The translations under genes and the position numbers were made by a program. Of a DNA stretch of 64,000 nt, positions 20,054 to 27,361 are shown one piece after another. This DNA comes from Longimicrobiales bacterium (lineage in GTDB: Bacteria; Gemmatimonadota; Gemmatimonadetes; Longimicrobiales; Gaopeijiaceae): assembly GCA_041690395.1 (NCBI GenBank), contig JAWLHJ010000004.1, forward strand, positions 128,001-192,000. Reading direction: 5' to 3'. The first letter of the stretch is position 1. Every line of letters starts with the position of its first letter. The notes under the pieces were generated by a model. That model saw nothing but the letters and a program-made list of their open reading frames with translations. It made no database searches and was not told the DNA's origin.

Positions 20054-23000
20054 TCAGGCGATGCCGACGGTCTCGAGCGCCTCTTCCAGCTTCACCCCGA
20101 CGATCGTGCTCACCCCCGGCTCCTCCATCGTCACGCCGTAGATCCAGTCGGCCGCCTCGATGGTGCGTGGGTTGTGCGTGATCACCACGAACTGCGTCTG
20201 GCCCTTGAAGTCCTGCAGCAGCCGGATGAAGCGTCCGATGTTGCTCTCATCGAGCGGCGCGTCGACCTCGTCGAGCACACAGAAGGGGCTCGGCTTGACG
20301 AGGTAGATGCCGAACAGCAGGGAGAGGGCCGTGAGCGCACGCTCTCCTCCTGAAAGCAGATCGATGCGCTGCGTCTTCTTCCCACGGGGCGAGGCGTGGA
20401 TGTCGATGGGCGACTCGAGCGGATCCTCGGGGTCCTCTAGGCGGATGTCCGCCTCGCCGCCCTCGAAGAGCCTCAAGAACGTCTGGCGGAAGTTCTCGCG
20501 GATCTGCTCGAAGGTCCCCTGGAAGAGATCGGTCGCGGTCTTGTTGATCTCCCGGATGGCCGCCCGGAGATCGTTCCGGGCCTCCACCAGGTCGTCACGC
20601 TGCCCCTGGAGGAACTCCAGCCGCTCGCTCTCCTCGGCGTGCTCCTCGACGGCCAGCATGTTGACCGGCCCGATCCGTTCGAGCGCCTCCACGATCTCCC
20701 GGAGCTCCCGCTGCAGCACTTCGGGCTCCCCCTCGACGTCATCGGCCTCGTCGAGGAGTGCCTCCAGCGGTCGGCTCCACTCGCCTTCCAATCGCTCGCG
20801 AATGCGCTCGACCCGCCCGTGAAGCTCCTGCCGCTCCAACTCGAGCTCGTGGCGACGATCCGACGAGGCCCGCTCCTTCGTCCGAGCCTCGCGCACGCGC
20901 CGCTCGGCCACCCGGAGCGCTTCGCTCACCTGCTGGAGCGCCTCGGTCCGTTCACGGACGGTCGCCTCGACGGTGGTGCGCTCGCCGAACAGCGCCTCCG
21001 TGCGTGCCTGCCCCTCCGCCTTGCGTGCCTGCAGAGCCTCGCGCTCACCCTTCAGCGACGTCTCCTCCTCGTCGAGGGCGCGCGTCCGCTCGGACGCCTG
21101 ACGTCGGCTCCGCTCCAGGGATTCGAGGCGCTCCGAGAGGCGCCGGAGATCGCCTTCGAGACGGGCGAGGTCGACCGCGACTCGGGCCTCTTCGGCACGC
21201 ACGGTCTCCCATCGCTCCTGGACGGTCTCGAGCACGGCCCGGGACGCCTCCCGCTCCTCCTCCACCCCGGACTCCTGCTGGAGCAGCGATTCCCGCTCCT
21301 CACGTGCGTCCTTCGAGCGGTCGATGGCACGCTGGCGCGCGGCGCGGGTCCCCTCGATCTGCCGAGAGAGCTCGTCGCGGAGCTTGTCCATCCGACCGTG
21401 CTGGTCGGCCTGGGCCTCGAGCTCCGCGTTCGCCTTGCGGTGGCCGTCCTCGGCGGCGCGCCAGGCCGTCCGCGCGGCTTCGACACGAGCTTCCGCGGCC
21501 GTGACCGCCTCCTGGGCCTCCTCGCGGCGGGACCGGAGCCCTACCTCGTCGGCGAGCGCCCGCTCGTGCTCGTCGCGAAGCACGCGCAACCGCTCCTTCC
21601 GCTCGAGGACGCCGGACGCTCCCTGGGGGTTGCCCATGCGGACCACACCACGATGAACAGTGACCGGAGTCTCGTCGCGGCTCGCACCTTCCACCTCGAC
21701 GCCAGCGAGCAGCGCTCGAACCCAAGCGCCGGCCTCCCCGGTCGTGTGGATCCGGTCGAGCAGTCCCCCGGAGGCAGCGCCCGCGTCGGGAATCCGGTCG
21801 AGCGGAAGCACGATGAGTCCTCCACCTTTCTTCCAGGTCGACGAGAACCAGTCCACGAGGCGGCGGACCGCCGCCCCGTCCCGCACGACCAGGGCGCGGG
21901 CCATCGAGCCCAGGAAGGCCTCGGCCGCGGCGACCGCGTCGGGGGGGCCCTCGATGGCGTCCGCCAGTGTGCCCAGCACGCCGTCGTCGCCGAGGTCGAG
22001 GGCGGCGCGTACCACGGGTTCCACGCCCTCCTGATCACGCTCCATCCGTTCCAGCGCTTCGACCCTGGCTCCGATCGAGGCCGCCCGGTCGACGGCCTCG
22101 CGCTCGGCCGTCCTGGCCTCGTCCAGCGCCGCTCGCGCCTCGTCGAGCTCGGAAACCCGCGTGTCGAGAGCCGCACGCGTCGACTCGACCTCGCGCTGGA
22201 GCTCGTCCAGCCTCCCCGAGAAGAGATCGCCCTGCGACGCGAGATCGGAGAGCTTCTCCGCGGTCGCGGCGAGCTCCTCGCGGGTCCGCAGGAGCCGCTT
22301 CTCGAGCTCCTCGGCCTGCTCCTCGGAGGCTTCGGCGTCTCCCTGGAGCTGGGCGCTGCGGCGTGCGATCTCCCGCGTGCGCGCCTCGGCCTGCTCCACC
22401 CGCTTCCGTGCTTCCGCGAGCTCGACACGCGCGCGCTCGGCCTCGGCCGAGCGGGTGGCCGCAACTTCGCGCAACTCCTCGAGTTGGACGACCACTTCGT
22501 CCCGCTCGGCCACGAGCTTGCCGGCCTCGGCTTCCATCGCCTCGGTGCTTTCGGCGGCAAGGCGCCGCTCTTCGTCGATCCGCTCGAGGCGGCGCTCGCC
22601 GTACGCCTCGCGCTCGGCCGCGACCGCGAGCTCACGCTCCCAGTGGACCAGCTGCTCCCGCACCCGCTCGAGCTCCTTGGCCGCTTCGGCCCGGGCCCGC
22701 TCGGCATCGACCTCCCGCACGCGCAGCGACTCGAATTCGGCCTCGGCGGTCCGCAGCTCGGCGACCATCCCCTCGCCGGTCATCTCGTCGCCCTCGAGCT
22801 CCTTCTCGACCTTGCCCAACCGCTCGGTGAGGGTCCGCAGCTGGTGGCGAACGACCGTCACCTCGACGTCGAGCCGCCGCTGGCGCAGCTCCATGAACCG
22901 CTGCGCCTTGCCTTTCTGGCGAGCGAGCGAGCGGACCTTGGTCTCGATCTCGGCGATCAGGTCCTCGAGACGCTGGAGGTCCATCTCCGCCCGCTCCAGG

Positions 23001-23539
23001 CGGCGGCTCGCGGCCTTCCGGCGATCCTTGTACTTCCCGATGCCGGACGCCTCCTCGAACAAGGCGCGACGCTCCTCCGCCCGGTCCGAGAGAATGGCGT
23101 CGATCATCTTGTTCTCGATGACCGAGTACGCGTTGGCACCCAGGCCGGTGTCCCGGCACAGGTCGACGACGTCCTTGAGGCGGCAGGACGAGCGGTTGAT
23201 CGAGTACTCGGAGCCCCCGTCCCGGAACACCTGGCGGCCGATCTCGACCTCCTCGAGCGGGATCGGGAGCGCCCCGTCCTCGTTGCTCACGACGAGGGAC
23301 ACCGACCCACGGTTCACCGGACGGCGACCCACGGTGCCCTGGAAGATGGCCTCCTCCATGCGGGATCCCCGGATCGCGGACGGCTTCTGCTCGCCCAGCA
23401 CCCACCGGATGGCGTCGCCGATATTCGACTTCCCACAACCGTTCGGGCCGACGACCGCCGTGATCCCGTCGTGGAACTCGACGGAGGTGCTATCGGCGAA
23501 GGACTTGAACCCGTGGACTTTCAGGGCACGGAGCTTCAT
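20054..23539 (-). CDS. smc: Chromosome segregation protein SMC
   Basis: GFKSF, GPNGCGKSN, long coiled coils, LSGGE, LDEVDAPLD, VITH. Confidence 0.97.
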   Translation of the reverse strand: MKLRALKVHGFKSFADSTSVEFHDGITAVVGPNGCGKSNIGDAIRWVLGEQKPSAIRGSRMEEAIFQGTVGRRPVNRGSVSLVVSNEDGALPIPLEEVEIGRQVFRDGGSEYSINRSSCRLKDVVDLCRDTGLGANAYSVIENKMIDAILSDRAEERRALFEEASGIGKYKDRRKAASRRLERAEMDLQRLEDLIAEIETKVRSLARQKGKAQRFMELRQRRLDVEVTVVRHQLRTLTERLGKVEKELEGDEMTGEGMVAELRTAEAEFESLRVREVDAERARAEAAKELERVREQLVHWERELAVAAEREAYGERRLERIDEERRLAAESTEAMEAEAGKLVAERDEVVVQLEELREVAATRSAEAERARVELAEARKRVEQAEARTREIARRSAQLQGDAEASEEQAEELEKRLLRTREELAATAEKLSDLASQGDLFSGRLDELQREVESTRAALDTRVSELDEARAALDEARTAEREAVDRAASIGARVEALERMERDQEGVEPVVRAALDLGDDGVLGTLADAIEGPPDAVAAAEAFLGSMARALVVRDGAAVRRLVDWFSSTWKKGGGLIVLPLDRIPDAGAASGGLLDRIHTTGEAGAWVRALLAGVEVEGASRDETPVTVHRGVVRMGNPQGASGVLERKERLRVLRDEHERALADEVGLRSRREEAQEAVTAAEARVEAARTAWRAAEDGHRKANAELEAQADQHGRMDKLRDELSRQIEGTRAARQRAIDRSKDAREERESLLQQESGVEEEREASRAVLETVQERWETVRAEEARVAVDLARLEGDLRRLSERLESLERSRRQASERTRALDEEETSLKGEREALQARKAEGQARTEALFGERTTVEATVRERTEALQQVSEALRVAERRVREARTKERASSDRRHELELERQELHGRVERIRERLEGEWSRPLEALLDEADDVEGEPEVLQRELREIVEALERIGPVNMLAVEEHAEESERLEFLQGQRDDLVEARNDLRAAIREINKTATDLFQGTFEQIRENFRQTFLRLFEGGEADIRLEDPEDPLESPIDIHASPRGKKTQRIDLLSGGERALTALSLLFGIYLVKPSPFCVLDEVDAPLDESNIGRFIRLLQDFKGQTQFVVITHNPRTIEAADWIYGVTMEEPGVSTIVGVKLEEALETVGIA

Positions 23540-23600: not shown

Positions 23601-24671
23601 CTATCTCAGCGCCCCCAGGACCACGAGAACGACCAGGATGAGCACGGCCAGCCCGACCCAGAGCAGCTTCCGACGGGCATCGGGATCCGCGCCGCCCTTC
23701 CGGCCGCGCCGCCTCGCGGGCGGGACGCCGGACACGGGATCGGCGGGCTCCGCCTCGGGTGCGTGCACGTGAGGCGCGCTCGACTCGGCTTCGACGGCGC
23801 GGCGGACCGACGCCTCGGCGGGGTCGCCCGTCGTCGCCTCGCTCTCTCCGGTGGGGGCCACGGTGAAGTCCATGGCAGCCTCGGCCTCGTCGGCGACCGG
23901 CTCGTCGCTCTCCGCCTCGGTCGAGCCCCATTCGCCGAGGCCTGCCAGCGCGGGGTCGTCCCATCCGGTGCCGGAGGGCTCCGGCAATCCGGCATCGGCG
24001 GGCACGTCCCTGTCTTCACCCCAGTCCGGATCCGACTCGGCCTCTACGTGCCTGGCGCCGACCCCCTCTTCGGGGGCGGGCTCCGCCCGGCCGGCACCGT
24101 CCACGCCGACCAGCACCCGGATCTTCCCCGCGGCGTCCCTTGCACTCGCAGGCACTCGCTCGGGCGAGTCGGTCAGGACGACGATGTCGTCCGCGCCCTC
24201 GATCAGCATCGCCTCGCCGACACACCCTTCCCGCAGGAAGACCACGAAGGTCACCCCCGCGTCCCGGAACCCGTCCTGCAGCCTCCCCCACCGAGCGCTC
24301 GTGATGACCTTCTCCGGATCGCCGGCCGGTGATCCGGCCGATACGAAGAAGAACGAGCGTCCCGGAACCGGCTGCGCGATCCGTGACACCGAAGCGCCGA
24401 AGAGGGCGGCATCGGCCACACCCTCGCCGGACTCGAGGCCGGCGCTACGGTGCAGCGTGGGATGTTCGAGCACGCAGTCCGCCACGACCACCCGATGCCC
24501 GGACTCTCCCCACGCATCGGCCATGCCTAGCGCCACATCGGCGGACCAACGCTCTCGGGATGCCGCCGCCGGAGCCAGAGCCACGACCACGCGTCCCCGC
24601 TCGGACGACTCGGGCGTCCACGGCGCACTACCGGCCGTGAACGGCTGCCATTCAGGAAGTTCGACGATCAA
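23601..24671 (-). CDS. Hypothetical protein: degenerate MinD/BY-kinase-like domain, acidic linker, C-terminal TM
   Basis: GHRVVVADC...PTLH...GEGVAD...FFVSAG resembles the CapB/Wzc/MinD core; no Walker A GK[ST]; terminal hydrophobic helix. Confidence 0.7.
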   Translation of the reverse strand: MIVELPEWQPFTAGSAPWTPESSERGRVVVALAPAAASRERWSADVALGMADAWGESGHRVVVADCVLEHPTLHRSAGLESGEGVADAALFGASVSRIAQPVPGRSFFFVSAGSPAGDPEKVITSARWGRLQDGFRDAGVTFVVFLREGCVGEAMLIEGADDIVVLTDSPERVPASARDAAGKIRVLVGVDGAGRAEPAPEEGVGARHVEAESDPDWGEDRDVPADAGLPEPSGTGWDDPALAGLGEWGSTEAESDEPVADEAEAAMDFTVAPTGESEATTGDPAEASVRRAVEAESSAPHVHAPEAEPADPVSGVPPARRRGRKGGADPDARRKLLWVGLAVLILVVLVVLGALR

Positions 24672-24750: not shown

Positions 24751-25107
24751 TCACTCGGCCGGTGCGTCCCAGCGCGGGGCGTCTCCCCACAGGTTCTCGA
24801 GCTGGTAGAACGAGCGTGCCTGGGGGTGGAAGACATGGACGACGAAGTCGATGTAGTCCAGCAGAACCCAACGCCCGCCATTCATCCCCTCGACGTGCTC
24901 GGGCTTCACGTCCGCCTTCTTCAACTCCTCGACCACGTGCTCGGCGATGGCCTTCACCTGCACGTCGGAGTTGCCGCTGGCGATGACGAAGTAGTCCGTC
25001 GCGGACGAGATGCCCTTCAGGTCCAGCACCACCAGGTCGTGCGCCTTCCGCTCCAGGGCAAGAGCCACGGAACGGTTGACCTCCTCGGGGAAGTCGCGCG
25101 GCGTCAC
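24751..25107 (-). CDS. rsfS: Ribosome silencing factor RsfS
   Basis: KAHDLVVLDL, DYFVIASGNS, WVLLDY.DFVVHVF, FYQLENLW. Confidence 0.96.
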   Translation of the reverse strand: MTPRDFPEEVNRSVALALERKAHDLVVLDLKGISSATDYFVIASGNSDVQVKAIAEHVVEELKKADVKPEHVEGMNGGRWVLLDYIDFVVHVFHPQARSFYQLENLWGDAPRWDAPAE

Positions 25108-25130: not shown

Positions 25131-25586
25131 TCAGCCTTCCTCCCGCTCCACCCGAATCTCGAGCTCGACCTCGACCTCGGGATGCAGGCGCACACCGACC
25201 GGGAAGACCCCGAGCGACTTGAGCGGCTCCTCCAATTGGATGGTGCGACGGTCGAGCTCGAAGTCGAGCTCGCCGGTGTTCGCGCGCTCGGCGATCTCGG
25301 CGGCGGTGACGGACCCGAACAGCTTGCCGTCTTCGCTGGCCTTCACCTCGAACGTCAGCGACAGGCCTTCGACCTGAGCCGCACGACGACGCGCCTCGAG
25401 GAAGTCGCGACGCGCGCGCTCCTCGGCCTTGGCCTGCTCCTCTTCGAGGCGCTTCATGTTCGCCTCGCTGGCGACGTACGCCAGGCCCTGCGGGAGCAGA
25501 TAGTTACGTCCATATCCGGGCTTCACCTGCACGACCGCACCGGCCTCGCCAAGGTTCGCCACGTCCTGCTTCAAAATGAGCTTCAT
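25131..25586 (-). CDS. rplI: 50S ribosomal protein bL9
   Basis: MKLILKQDVANLG, VKPGYGRNYLLP, GKLFGSVT. Confidence 0.97.
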   Translation of the reverse strand: MKLILKQDVANLGEAGAVVQVKPGYGRNYLLPQGLAYVASEANMKRLEEEQAKAEERARRDFLEARRRAAQVEGLSLTFEVKASEDGKLFGSVTAAEIAERANTGELDFELDRRTIQLEEPLKSLGVFPVGVRLHPEVEVELEIRVEREEG

Positions 25587-26558: not shown

Positions 26559-27182
26559 TCAGCCCTCGTGGCGCCGGGTGTAGGGGATGAGTGCCAGATA
26601 GCGCGCACGCTTCACGGCCCGCCCGAGCTGCCGCTGGAAGGCTGCGTTGACCTTGGTCGTGCGCTTCGGAAGGATCTTCCCCTGCTCCGTCAGGAAGCGC
26701 GCGAGCGTCGAGACGTCCTTGTAGTTCAGGAGCGTGATCGCGGGCCCTTCCATGCGCCGGCGCCGGCCGCCGCCACCCTGGAACTCGGGGGGCGAGCCGT
26801 CGTCGTCCTCGTCCTCTTCCTCTTCATCATCGTCGTCGTCCTCGTCACGCTCGACGTGATGCACCTCGGCCATGATCGACTGGCCGTTGGTGGGCTCGCC
26901 CTCGTTCAGGACGATCAGGTAGCGGAGGACCTCGCCGTCGAGCTTGACGATACGCTCGAACTCGGGCAGCGCGTCCGGGGCGGCGTTGAACTGCGCCACC
27001 ACGTAGTAGCCCTGGTTGAGCTTGTTGACGGGGTAGGCGAGCTGGCGGATGCCCCAGTGGTCGACGGAGGTCACTTCGCCGCCGTTGGCGGTCGCGAGCG
27101 CGTGGAACTTGTCGAGCTTCGCCGTCACGGCGCTCTCGTCGAGCGCCGGGTCGAGGATATACACAGCCTCGTAAAGCCGCAT
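26559..27182 (-). CDS. rpsF-rpsR: Fused 30S ribosomal proteins bS6-bS18
   Basis: aa 1-95 are bS6 (MRLYEAVYILDP, WGIRQLAYPV, VLRYLIV); D/E-rich linker; aa ~145-207 are bS18 (NYKDV..L.RFLTEQGKILPKRTT, QRQL..AVKRARYLALIPY); no stop between them. Confidence 0.93.
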   Translation of the reverse strand: MRLYEAVYILDPALDESAVTAKLDKFHALATANGGEVTSVDHWGIRQLAYPVNKLNQGYYVVAQFNAAPDALPEFERIVKLDGEVLRYLIVLNEGEPTNGQSIMAEVHHVERDEDDDDDEEEEDEDDDGSPPEFQGGGGRRRRMEGPAITLLNYKDVSTLARFLTEQGKILPKRTTKVNAAFQRQLGRAVKRARYLALIPYTRRHEG

Positions 27183-27361
27183 TTCGGTTTCCCTCGGTCC
27201 GTAGAAATGGTCACGGGCCCCGTCATGACTTGGATCCTCACTGCGGTGGAGGCTTCCGGACGGAGCGGGATTTCATTGTTTGCGCCGTTCTGGCGCTCCC
27301 GAAGCTAGCGCAACGGTTGGCGGGGCGGTAGGCGCGGAACCGCGTCAGCCCTGGCCTACGT

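What the first reader, a model, noticed from the sequence alone, without database searches (positions are those of the whole stretch)
26559..27182. Ribosomal proteins bS6 and bS18 fused into one polypeptide through a poly-acidic linker
Seen: one 207-aa ORF carries a complete bS6, then the linker ERDEDDDDDEEEEDEDDDGSPPEFQGGGGRRRR, then a complete bS18 core. There is no stop between them and no ssb/priB gene in between. The one ATG directly ahead of the bS18 core (26753) has no SD. Established: bS6 and bS18 are normally separate genes whose products bind the 16S central domain as a heterodimer. In E. coli the bS6 C-terminus is polyglutamylated by RimK and the bS18 N-terminus is acetylated by RimI. 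Inference: the fusion fixes 1:1 stoichiometry, removes both modifiable termini, and encodes an acidic tract near the 30S platform and mRNA exit. I do not know of this fusion being characterised.
Basis: partly seen in the sequence, partly recalled or inferred. Interest (0 to 1): 0.88.

Follow-up and report, generated by a model that had tools for sequence, protein, structure and literature searches.

The report
Family-wide fused S6-S18 ribosomal protein
In this soil bacterium and nearly its whole family, two small-subunit ribosomal proteins that normally pair as separate chains (S6 and S18) are encoded by one gene whose S18 half lacks its ancestors' zinc-binding residues; the product likely works as a pre-joined pair, and similar fusions appear to have arisen separately in other bacteria.

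Summary
Confirmed. Window 26559-27182 (minus strand) is one 207-aa frame holding bS6 and bS18, the genome's only copy of each. It is inherited, not an error. Of 151 genomes of this Longimicrobiales family, 139 carry it intact and 2 are truly split; none of 80 genomes of the two sister families shows it. On RpoB the fused genomes form one clade, with a split member as sister. In both split members rpsR starts in frame one codon behind the rpsF stop, so stop loss is the likely origin. The acidic tract is the ancestral S6 tail, grown to 25-167 aa. The internal start codon is not conserved. A covarying rpsF-type autoregulatory leader is kept. S6-S18 fusions recur in other lineages (one origin rejected, p=1e-6). 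That the chain stays uncut is inferred. My searches found no paper on it, but databases label the architecture automatically, and this scan has noted it before (33 findings, at least 24 genomes). Verdict: a new variant of a known kind.

The parts
26559..27182 (-). Fused rpsF-rpsR gene, 207 aa, the only bS6 and bS18 coding sequence in the genome
26901..27182 (-). bS6 domain (residues 1-94). It keeps the RQLAYP loop (46-51) and R87, the equivalents of E. coli S6 residues 44-49 and R85 at the S18 interface
   Evidence: interface residues from PMC4647458 section 8
26868..26900 (-). Conserved bS6 C-terminal segment (residues 95-105). Residues 103-104 are called strand/bridge in both models, as are S18-side residues 149-151; their pairing is inferred
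26799..26852 (-). Acidic tract (residues 111-128), predicted disordered. Derived from the ancestral encoded acidic tail of bS6; the variable linker is 25-167 aa across the family
26754..26792 (-). Conserved PPEF-x-G-x-(R)-G-RRRR motif (residues 131-143): a remodelled basic N-terminal tail of bS18 plus a family-specific PPEF segment; low confidence in both models
26562..26753 (-). bS18 core (residues 144-207), zinc-free: the CxxC knuckle is replaced by EGP and the CxxH by xxxF (F182 invariant). RNA-binding K191, R192 and R194 (E. coli K60, R61, R63) are invariant
27190..27270 (-). rpsF-type leader RNA: three stems, with the SD-like GGGA paired in the closing stem and an invariant unpaired CC pair (27196-27197); predicted S6:S18-binding translational operator
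   Evidence: definition from PMC4647458
25609..26553 (-). DUF2232 membrane protein gene, directly downstream in the likely operon
25131..25586 (-). rplI (bL9), downstream in the likely operon; followed by rsfS at 24751-25107

Best explanation
This gene encodes bS6 and a zinc-free bS18 in one reading frame throughout one Longimicrobiales family, and its product likely folds as an intramolecular version of the normal S6:S18 pair that binds the 16S central domain uncut, with the acidic linker predicted to loop out unstructured. Shown: the single frame, single copy, family-wide inheritance, one clade on RpoB, loss of all four zinc ligands, and conservation of the interface and RNA-binding residues and of the leader fold. 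Inferred origin: the ancestor had rpsR starting in frame just behind the rpsF stop, as G095 and G102 still do (TAG, one codon, ATG). Loss of that stop turned the encoded acidic S6 tail into a tether. The S18 start and its CxxC knuckle were then remodelled into PPEF-Gly/Arg-EGP, which would make reversal hard because no conserved start remains. Inferred function: the tether likely takes over part of the job of holding S18 folded and beside S6, so the zinc site became dispensable; the order of these two events is not resolved. Surplus fusion protein would bind the retained leader at its CC pair, hold the SD paired and repress its own operon as a one-chain autoregulator.
For: Domains over cut-off and single copy. 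139 of 151 family genomes intact and fused, 2 split. 0 of 80 sister-family genomes show a stop-free through-match, and 26 of them translated are all split. RpoB: 15 fused genomes form one side of a branch (SH-aLRT 97), with split G095 as sister inside a family branch at 99. Cys in S18: 0 of 45 fused, and CxxC plus CxxH in 28 of 28 split (L066 read by eye). The same genome keeps Cys-rich L28, L31, L32, L33 and S14, so the zinc loss is specific to S18. The S18 core tree places the fused S18 (97) beside Longimicrobiales split S18 (91), which favours change in place over replacement from afar. Two AlphaFold runs give pTM 0.73 with both domains confident and the linker under pLDDT 50. Leader: 96.5% of cells paired, 7 pairs with two-sided changes, 0 of 500 shuffles as high, slid controls 32-49%; the single-sequence fold is the same.
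Against: No protein-level evidence that the chain stays intact. The PPEF-Arg motif is strongly conserved yet unplaced in both models, so it may have a role that this account misses. rimI is retained. The zinc-fusion link rests on one event in this family: kin are not independent. Many other fused lineages look proteobacterial or Bacteroidota-like, where S18 is zinc-free anyway (recalled for Bacteroidota; for E. coli stated in PMC6094098). The leader has no Rfam match, its folding energy is not better than shuffles (z -0.52), and the structure was drawn from the same alignment it was scored on. The RpoB tree is a quick search with 24 rows and lacks G102, which is placed with G095 only by S6 (98).
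Confidence: 0.8

Rival explanations
1. The gene encodes a polyprotein that a protease cuts at or near the conserved PPEF-Gly-Arg motif, so ribosomes carry ordinary separate S6 (with acidic tail) and S18.
For: A near-invariant motif sits in a predicted disordered linker. The linker reaches 167 aa in some genera. rimI, whose textbook substrate is the free S18 N-terminus, is kept in 55 of 61 family genomes.
Against: No Prp-family ribosomal protease in this 98% complete genome, while the control search found it in 3 of 14 genomes. Genus g38 lacks PPEF yet stays fused (4 of 4). The Arg tract aligns with the normal N-terminal tail of B. subtilis S18, which explains its conservation without cleavage. 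RimI has another substrate, EF-Tu (PMC9079301), and lies in the tsaE-tsaB cluster here (gene names read from the translations).
Confidence: 0.11
2. The linker is not a passive tether: the acidic loop and PPEF-Arg motif act at the 30S platform on the anti-SD or mRNA exit path and change how this family initiates translation.
For: The bS6 C-terminus and bS18 N-terminal region line the anti-SD pocket in Flavobacterium (PMC7797042 passages). The motif is conserved and the tract stays acidic (19-76% D/E) over a sevenfold length range.
Against: This genome uses SD sequences: 30% of 956 likely starts against 8.6% of 13,903 internal ATGs, from a crude ORF set. It has bS21 and a canonical anti-SD. So Bacteroidota-type sequestration is not in force. 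Linker length and sequence vary freely, and split ancestors had the acidic tail already.
Confidence: 0.15
3. A separate short S18 is also made from an internal start at Met144, so the fusion is only part of the output.
For: ATG is the commonest codon at this position (17 of 45; 63 of 75 among the closest relatives). One 64-aa database protein, P0166, begins there.
Against: 24 of 45 have neither ATG nor GTG there (CAC 14, GTC 5, GTT, ATC, ATT, CGC, TTA). 19 of 45 have no ATG/GTG/TTG within 25 codons of the S18 core. Where the residue is Val, GTG is 4 of 10, the same as background use (310 of 778). There is no SD upstream.
Confidence: 0.04
4. Assembly or sequencing error joining two genes.
For: Such read-throughs exist. 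Most of the 21 gammaproteobacterial-type two-domain hits keep a Met-started, otherwise normal S18 N-terminus behind a scrambled tail.
Against: 139 of 151 family genomes, a remodelled junction without a conserved start, and independent contigs across the linker.
Confidence: 0.005

Closest known systems
Canonical bacterial bS6:bS18 heterodimer (rpsF, rpsR; PF01250, PF01084; e.g. chains of PDB 1G1X, 7K00)
   Same: Both domains over family cut-offs; S6 fold matches at rmsd 1.3-2.2 A for the top 14 hits; interface and 16S-binding residues conserved; same operon position before DUF2232 and rplI.
   Different: One chain instead of two. None of the best 60 PDB sequences matched or the best 50 fold matches covers both domains.
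Zinc-binding (C+) and zinc-free (C-) bS18 forms; Zur-regulated C- paralogues of mycobacteria
   Same: The fused S18 is C-, its split relatives are C+.
   Different: It is the only copy, sits in the housekeeping operon, appears to descend in place from the local C+ gene, and the other zinc ribosomal proteins of this genome stay C+. It is not a starvation paralogue.
rpsF leader bound by S6:S18 (PMC4647458)
   Same: Structured leader with the SD in a stem, a conserved unpaired CC pair, a conserved second stem; the S18 residues that read the CC pair are invariant.
   Different: The predicted ligand is one chain. The family adds a third hairpin, also present in the two split members. No Rfam model matched. 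Binding was not tested.
Anti-SD sequestration by bS21, bS18 and bS6 in Bacteroidota (PMC7797042)
   Same: Lineage-specific additions at the bS6 C-terminus and bS18 N-terminal region, the part of the platform where this linker would lie.
   Different: This genome uses SD sequences; the addition is a long, predicted disordered acidic loop, not a folded helix.
Ribosomal protein precursors that are cut (Prp-processed bL27 of Firmicutes; ubiquitin-ribosomal protein fusions), recalled
   Same: A ribosomal protein made with an N-terminal extension and a conserved motif ahead of the core.
   Different: The extension here is another ribosomal protein that binds the first; no Prp found; no cleavage shown.

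Membership tests
bS6 (PF01250, TIGR00166) | Profile score over the curated cut-off | tested here: met
   99.8 bits against 27; 87.8 against 42.9
bS6 (PF01250, TIGR00166) | S6 fold and S18-interface residues (RQLAYP loop, R85 equivalent) | tested here: met
   Foldseek top hits are all bS6; R46, Q47, A49, Y50, P51 and R87 invariant or nearly so
bS18 (PF01084, TIGR00165) | Profile score over cut-off and 16S-binding K60/R61/R63 equivalents | tested here: met
   67.1 bits against 21; 73.9 against 38.75; K191, R192 and R194 invariant
Canonical bS6:bS18 heterodimer | Two separately encoded chains | tested here: not met
   One frame, single copy
Canonical bS6:bS18 heterodimer | Incorporation into the 30S platform | not testable with these tools
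   Inferred from being the only copy and from conserved residues
C+ (zinc-binding) bS18 | CxxC and CxxH ligands | tested here: not met
   0 Cys in 45 of 45 fused copies; present in 28 of 28 split relatives
Zur-regulated C- paralogue | Second, zinc-free copy beside a C+ copy | tested here: not met
   One PF01084 match in the genome
rpsF leader (S6:S18 operator) | SD paired in a stem, conserved second stem, conserved unpaired CC pair ahead of rpsF | tested here: met
   44 leaders: 96.5% paired, two-sided changes at 7 of 15 pairs, CC invariant
rpsF leader (S6:S18 operator) | Match to a curated RNA model | tested here: inconclusive
   No relevant Rfam hit at E up to 5; whether Rfam holds a model that covers this lineage was not checked
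rpsF leader (S6:S18 operator) | Binding and repression by S6:S18 | not testable with these tools
   Needs a binding or reporter assay
Bacteroidota anti-SD sequestration | Genome-wide lack of SD use | tested here: not met
   SD-like motif at 30% of likely starts against 8.6% of internal ATGs
Prp-processed ribosomal protein precursor | Prp protease (PF04327) in the genome | tested here: not met
   No match in G000; control found it in 3 of 14 genomes

The most novel reading that the evidence does not exclude
Joining bS6 to bS18 is a repeated evolutionary route by which a covalent tether replaces the zinc knuckle as the device that keeps bS18 folded on bS6. In this family the result is a one-chain autoregulator whose conserved PPEF-Arg motif and 25-167-residue acidic loop form a new lineage-specific element on the 30S platform that tunes mRNA recruitment.
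Probability: 0.15. Interest if true: 0.75.

Novelty: new variant of a known kind. Interest (0 to 1): 0.48.

Why it matters
The S6:S18 pair is a model for coupled folding and hierarchical ribosome assembly. A natural one-chain version that is fixed in a large family, with living split sisters that keep the zinc site, gives a ready comparison. It lets one test whether tethering can replace zinc, and whether a single chain still represses its own leader. It also shows that core ribosomal protein boundaries are more plastic than the textbook set suggests, since the same join recurs elsewhere. In practice, most named records call these proteins 'S6' only, so S18 can look missing in annotation or marker-gene surveys. 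It does not reveal a new pathway.

Tried and rejected
Rfam scan of the leader: only chance hits. First pair count used a structure out of register and is void; corrected. The one-clade test (p 0.017) was mis-specified, because it left out five fragments of this family's own S18 that nest in the clade; I do not use it. A second, deeper AlphaFold run did not place the PPEF motif. A general zinc-sparing shift was rejected for this genome, though G011 has zinc-free L31 and S14. Stop-codon read-through in split relatives was rejected: the in-frame stops are TAA, TAG and TGA in different genomes. A metagenome scan to see the DNA of one other fused group (P0206, P0215, P0266) returned only two distant loci; L207 is split and L208 has a stand-alone S6. 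So the other-lineage fusions are supported at protein level only. The regex missed 29 of 80 loci through a length bound; the rerun parsed 75, three more are intact by eye, and two (L193, L198) were not read. No sigma-70 consensus promoter was found. The family name could not be fixed.

Full report
Observation. The minus-strand frame 27182-26559 gives 207 aa without a stop, and the quoted linker is exact. Pfam and NCBIfam place bS6 at residues 1-92 and bS18 at 149-203, both over cut-off. tblastn with each half and a PF01084 search find one copy of each in the 98% complete genome. Downstream lie DUF2232, rplI and rsfS. Contigs of close strains from three studies cross the linker without gaps.

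Distribution. Homologues are labelled Gemmatimonadota or Longimicrobiales, most as 'S6' only; all 120 listed carry both domains. Of 151 family genomes (counted by hand from the table), 139 are intact fusions. 113 of these are one stop-free match, and 26 are two matches in one open frame, 20 of which I translated. The remaining 12 are: 2 truly split (G095, G102), 2 with a one-base shift in the linker (G137, G159, probably assembly errors), 1 with an N gap, 3 cut by contig ends, 1 with a foreign-looking S6-ssb-S18 locus (G089), and 3 without a match. In the two sister families none of 80 genomes shows a stop-free through-match; 61 weak rows were not listed. The 26 loci translated are all split. 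In a phylum sample at E up to 1e-30, none of the 46 matching genomes outside the family is fused; 88 genomes had no match at that cut. The family name is not fixed. One record title reads UBA6960 and earlier scan notes say Gaopeijiaceae; the Gaopeijia paper passages did not settle it.

Origin. On RpoB (24 rows, quick IQ-TREE search) the 15 fused genomes are one side of a branch (SH-aLRT 97), G095 is their sister (family branch 99), and the outgroups are split. G102 lacked enough RpoB but pairs with G095 on S6 (98). In both, rpsF ends in TAG, one codon follows, and rpsR starts in frame. In 13 of 27 split loci parsed the start is in frame, and in all 27 it lies within -1 to +4 nt of the stop. 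Loss of one stop is therefore a sufficient first step (inference).

Anatomy. All 28 split bS6 end in an encoded acidic tail, so the tract is inherited; in 45 fused copies the variable linker is 25-167 aa, median 37. All 28 split bS18 have CxxC and CxxH; none of the 45 fused copies has a Cys, nor do 75 of 75 parsed in an overlapping, closer set. This genome keeps Cys-rich L28, L31, L32, L33 and S14, so the loss is specific. The S18 tree puts the fused form on a long stem beside Longimicrobiales split S18 (55 columns, weak). A PPEF-Gly/Arg-EGP motif precedes the core. Its basic part aligns with the N-terminal tail of B. subtilis S18, and genus g38 lacks PPEF. The codon at Met144 is not a conserved start. 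Two AlphaFold runs give confident domains, pTM 0.73, and a linker under pLDDT 50; the fold search returns bS6 chains only in the top 50. The residues that E. coli uses for the S6-S18 interface and for RNA binding (PMC4647458 section 8) are conserved.

Leader. Upstream of the gene, 44 leaders share three stems, an SD-like GGGA in the closing stem and an invariant unpaired CC. 96.5% of cells pair, 7 of 15 pairs show two-sided changes, and 0 of 500 shuffles reach that (structure drawn from the same alignment). The window's own fold agrees (z -0.52). This fits the rpsF leader that S6:S18 represses in E. coli. Rfam gave no match. Autoregulation by the fused chain is predicted, not shown.

Modifiers and SD use. 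No RimK orthologue was found. rimI is kept in 55 of 61 family genomes; RimI also acetylates EF-Tu (PMC9079301). No Prp. SD motifs are enriched at starts, bS21 is present and the anti-SD is canonical, so Bacteroidota-type sequestration (PMC7797042) does not apply.

Recurrence. Of the best 150 representatives, 54 hold both domains. Seven belong to this family. I left out 13, most of them likely chimeras or read-throughs, and used 34 plus P0285. On the S6 domain these form several separate well-supported groups of fused proteins (six at 96-99). The label needs 11 changes, and a single clade of all fused rows is rejected (p-AU 1e-6; 102 columns, sparse and biased sampling of unfused S6). P0226 has five further clusters at 71-74% identity, all fused at 194-196 aa. 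Against this, most of the 21 gammaproteobacterial-type two-domain hits look like sporadic read-throughs, and I could not view DNA for the other lineages.

What is known. Nine paper searches, seven of them aimed at the fusion or at ribosomal-protein surveys, showed no description of a natural S6-S18 fusion. Word searches inside two ribosomal-protein surveys (PMC3353972; bioRxiv 2021.01.31.429008) found no mention of fusions; I read passages only and no supplements, which could list them. The library lacks most subscription journals. Papers seen: PMC4647458 (passages and section 8), PMC7797042, PMC6094098 and PMC11651109 (passages), PMC9079301 (listing and start of abstract). Databases already label the architecture automatically: two IMG names list both proteins and an Atlas cluster is called 'Multifunctional fusion protein'. 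This scan holds 33 earlier findings with these words in at least 24 genomes.

Verdict. A real, fixed, family-level variant of a known complex, with a clean evolutionary path and a tight but single-event link to zinc loss. Best reading: an uncut one-chain S6:S18 that still regulates its own leader (0.8). Interest 0.48.

Noticed in passing
L084 and L088 (G011:C1:3382258-3383313): G011 has Cys-free L31 and an S14 lacking the CxxC pair, lying about 700 bp apart; they were the only copies found of each. G000, G095 and G102 have the Cys-rich forms where found.
   Followed up: partly
family f5 genomes, e.g. G267:C4:696883-697449: In 16 of 31 f5 genomes rpsR lies in frame directly behind the rpsF stop, the same pre-fusion layout, yet none is fused.
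   Followed up: no
L038, L043 upstream of rpsF; window 27199-27216: The third hairpin of the leader is shared by fused members and the two split family members but not seen in most sister-family leaders, so it predates the fusion.
   Followed up: partly
L031 (G137) and L037 (G159), linker: One-base shifts at the PPEF motif; in G137 the S6 frame then runs 535 aa into the next gene. Probably assembly errors.
   Followed up: partly
L060 (G089:C9): An S6-ssb-S18 locus with C+ S18 and 31% identity to the family S6, in a 60% complete bin; likely a foreign contig.
   Followed up: partly
L201, L202, L203: Records titled Gammaproteobacteria carry this family's fusion at 60% identity; likely mislabelled bins.
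   Followed up: no
P0304: A protein named mitochondrial bS6m of a tsetse fly in UniRef is a gammaproteobacterial-type S6 plus S18 read-through, likely from a bacterial symbiont.
   Followed up: no
P0325: A single record with S18 ahead of S6; likely an assembly artefact.
   Followed up: no
P0166: A 64-aa protein call that begins at the internal Met of the family's S18 half; context not seen.
   Followed up: no
L118-L120 (G029, G025, G027): RpoB of family f2 sits in open frames of 1781-1858 aa and matches the model in four pieces, suggesting large insertions.
   Followed up: no
window 23601-24671 (-): A 356-aa ORF between rsfS and an SMC-like gene (20054-23539) has no Pfam match; it has an acidic middle and a C-terminal hydrophobic stretch.
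   Followed up: no
L036, L039, L045-L049, L051-L053, L057 (genera g61, g65, g67, g69): Linkers of 77-167 aa, Ala/Gly/acidic, in a group that clusters on RpoB; these are the extreme forms of the fusion.
   Followed up: partly
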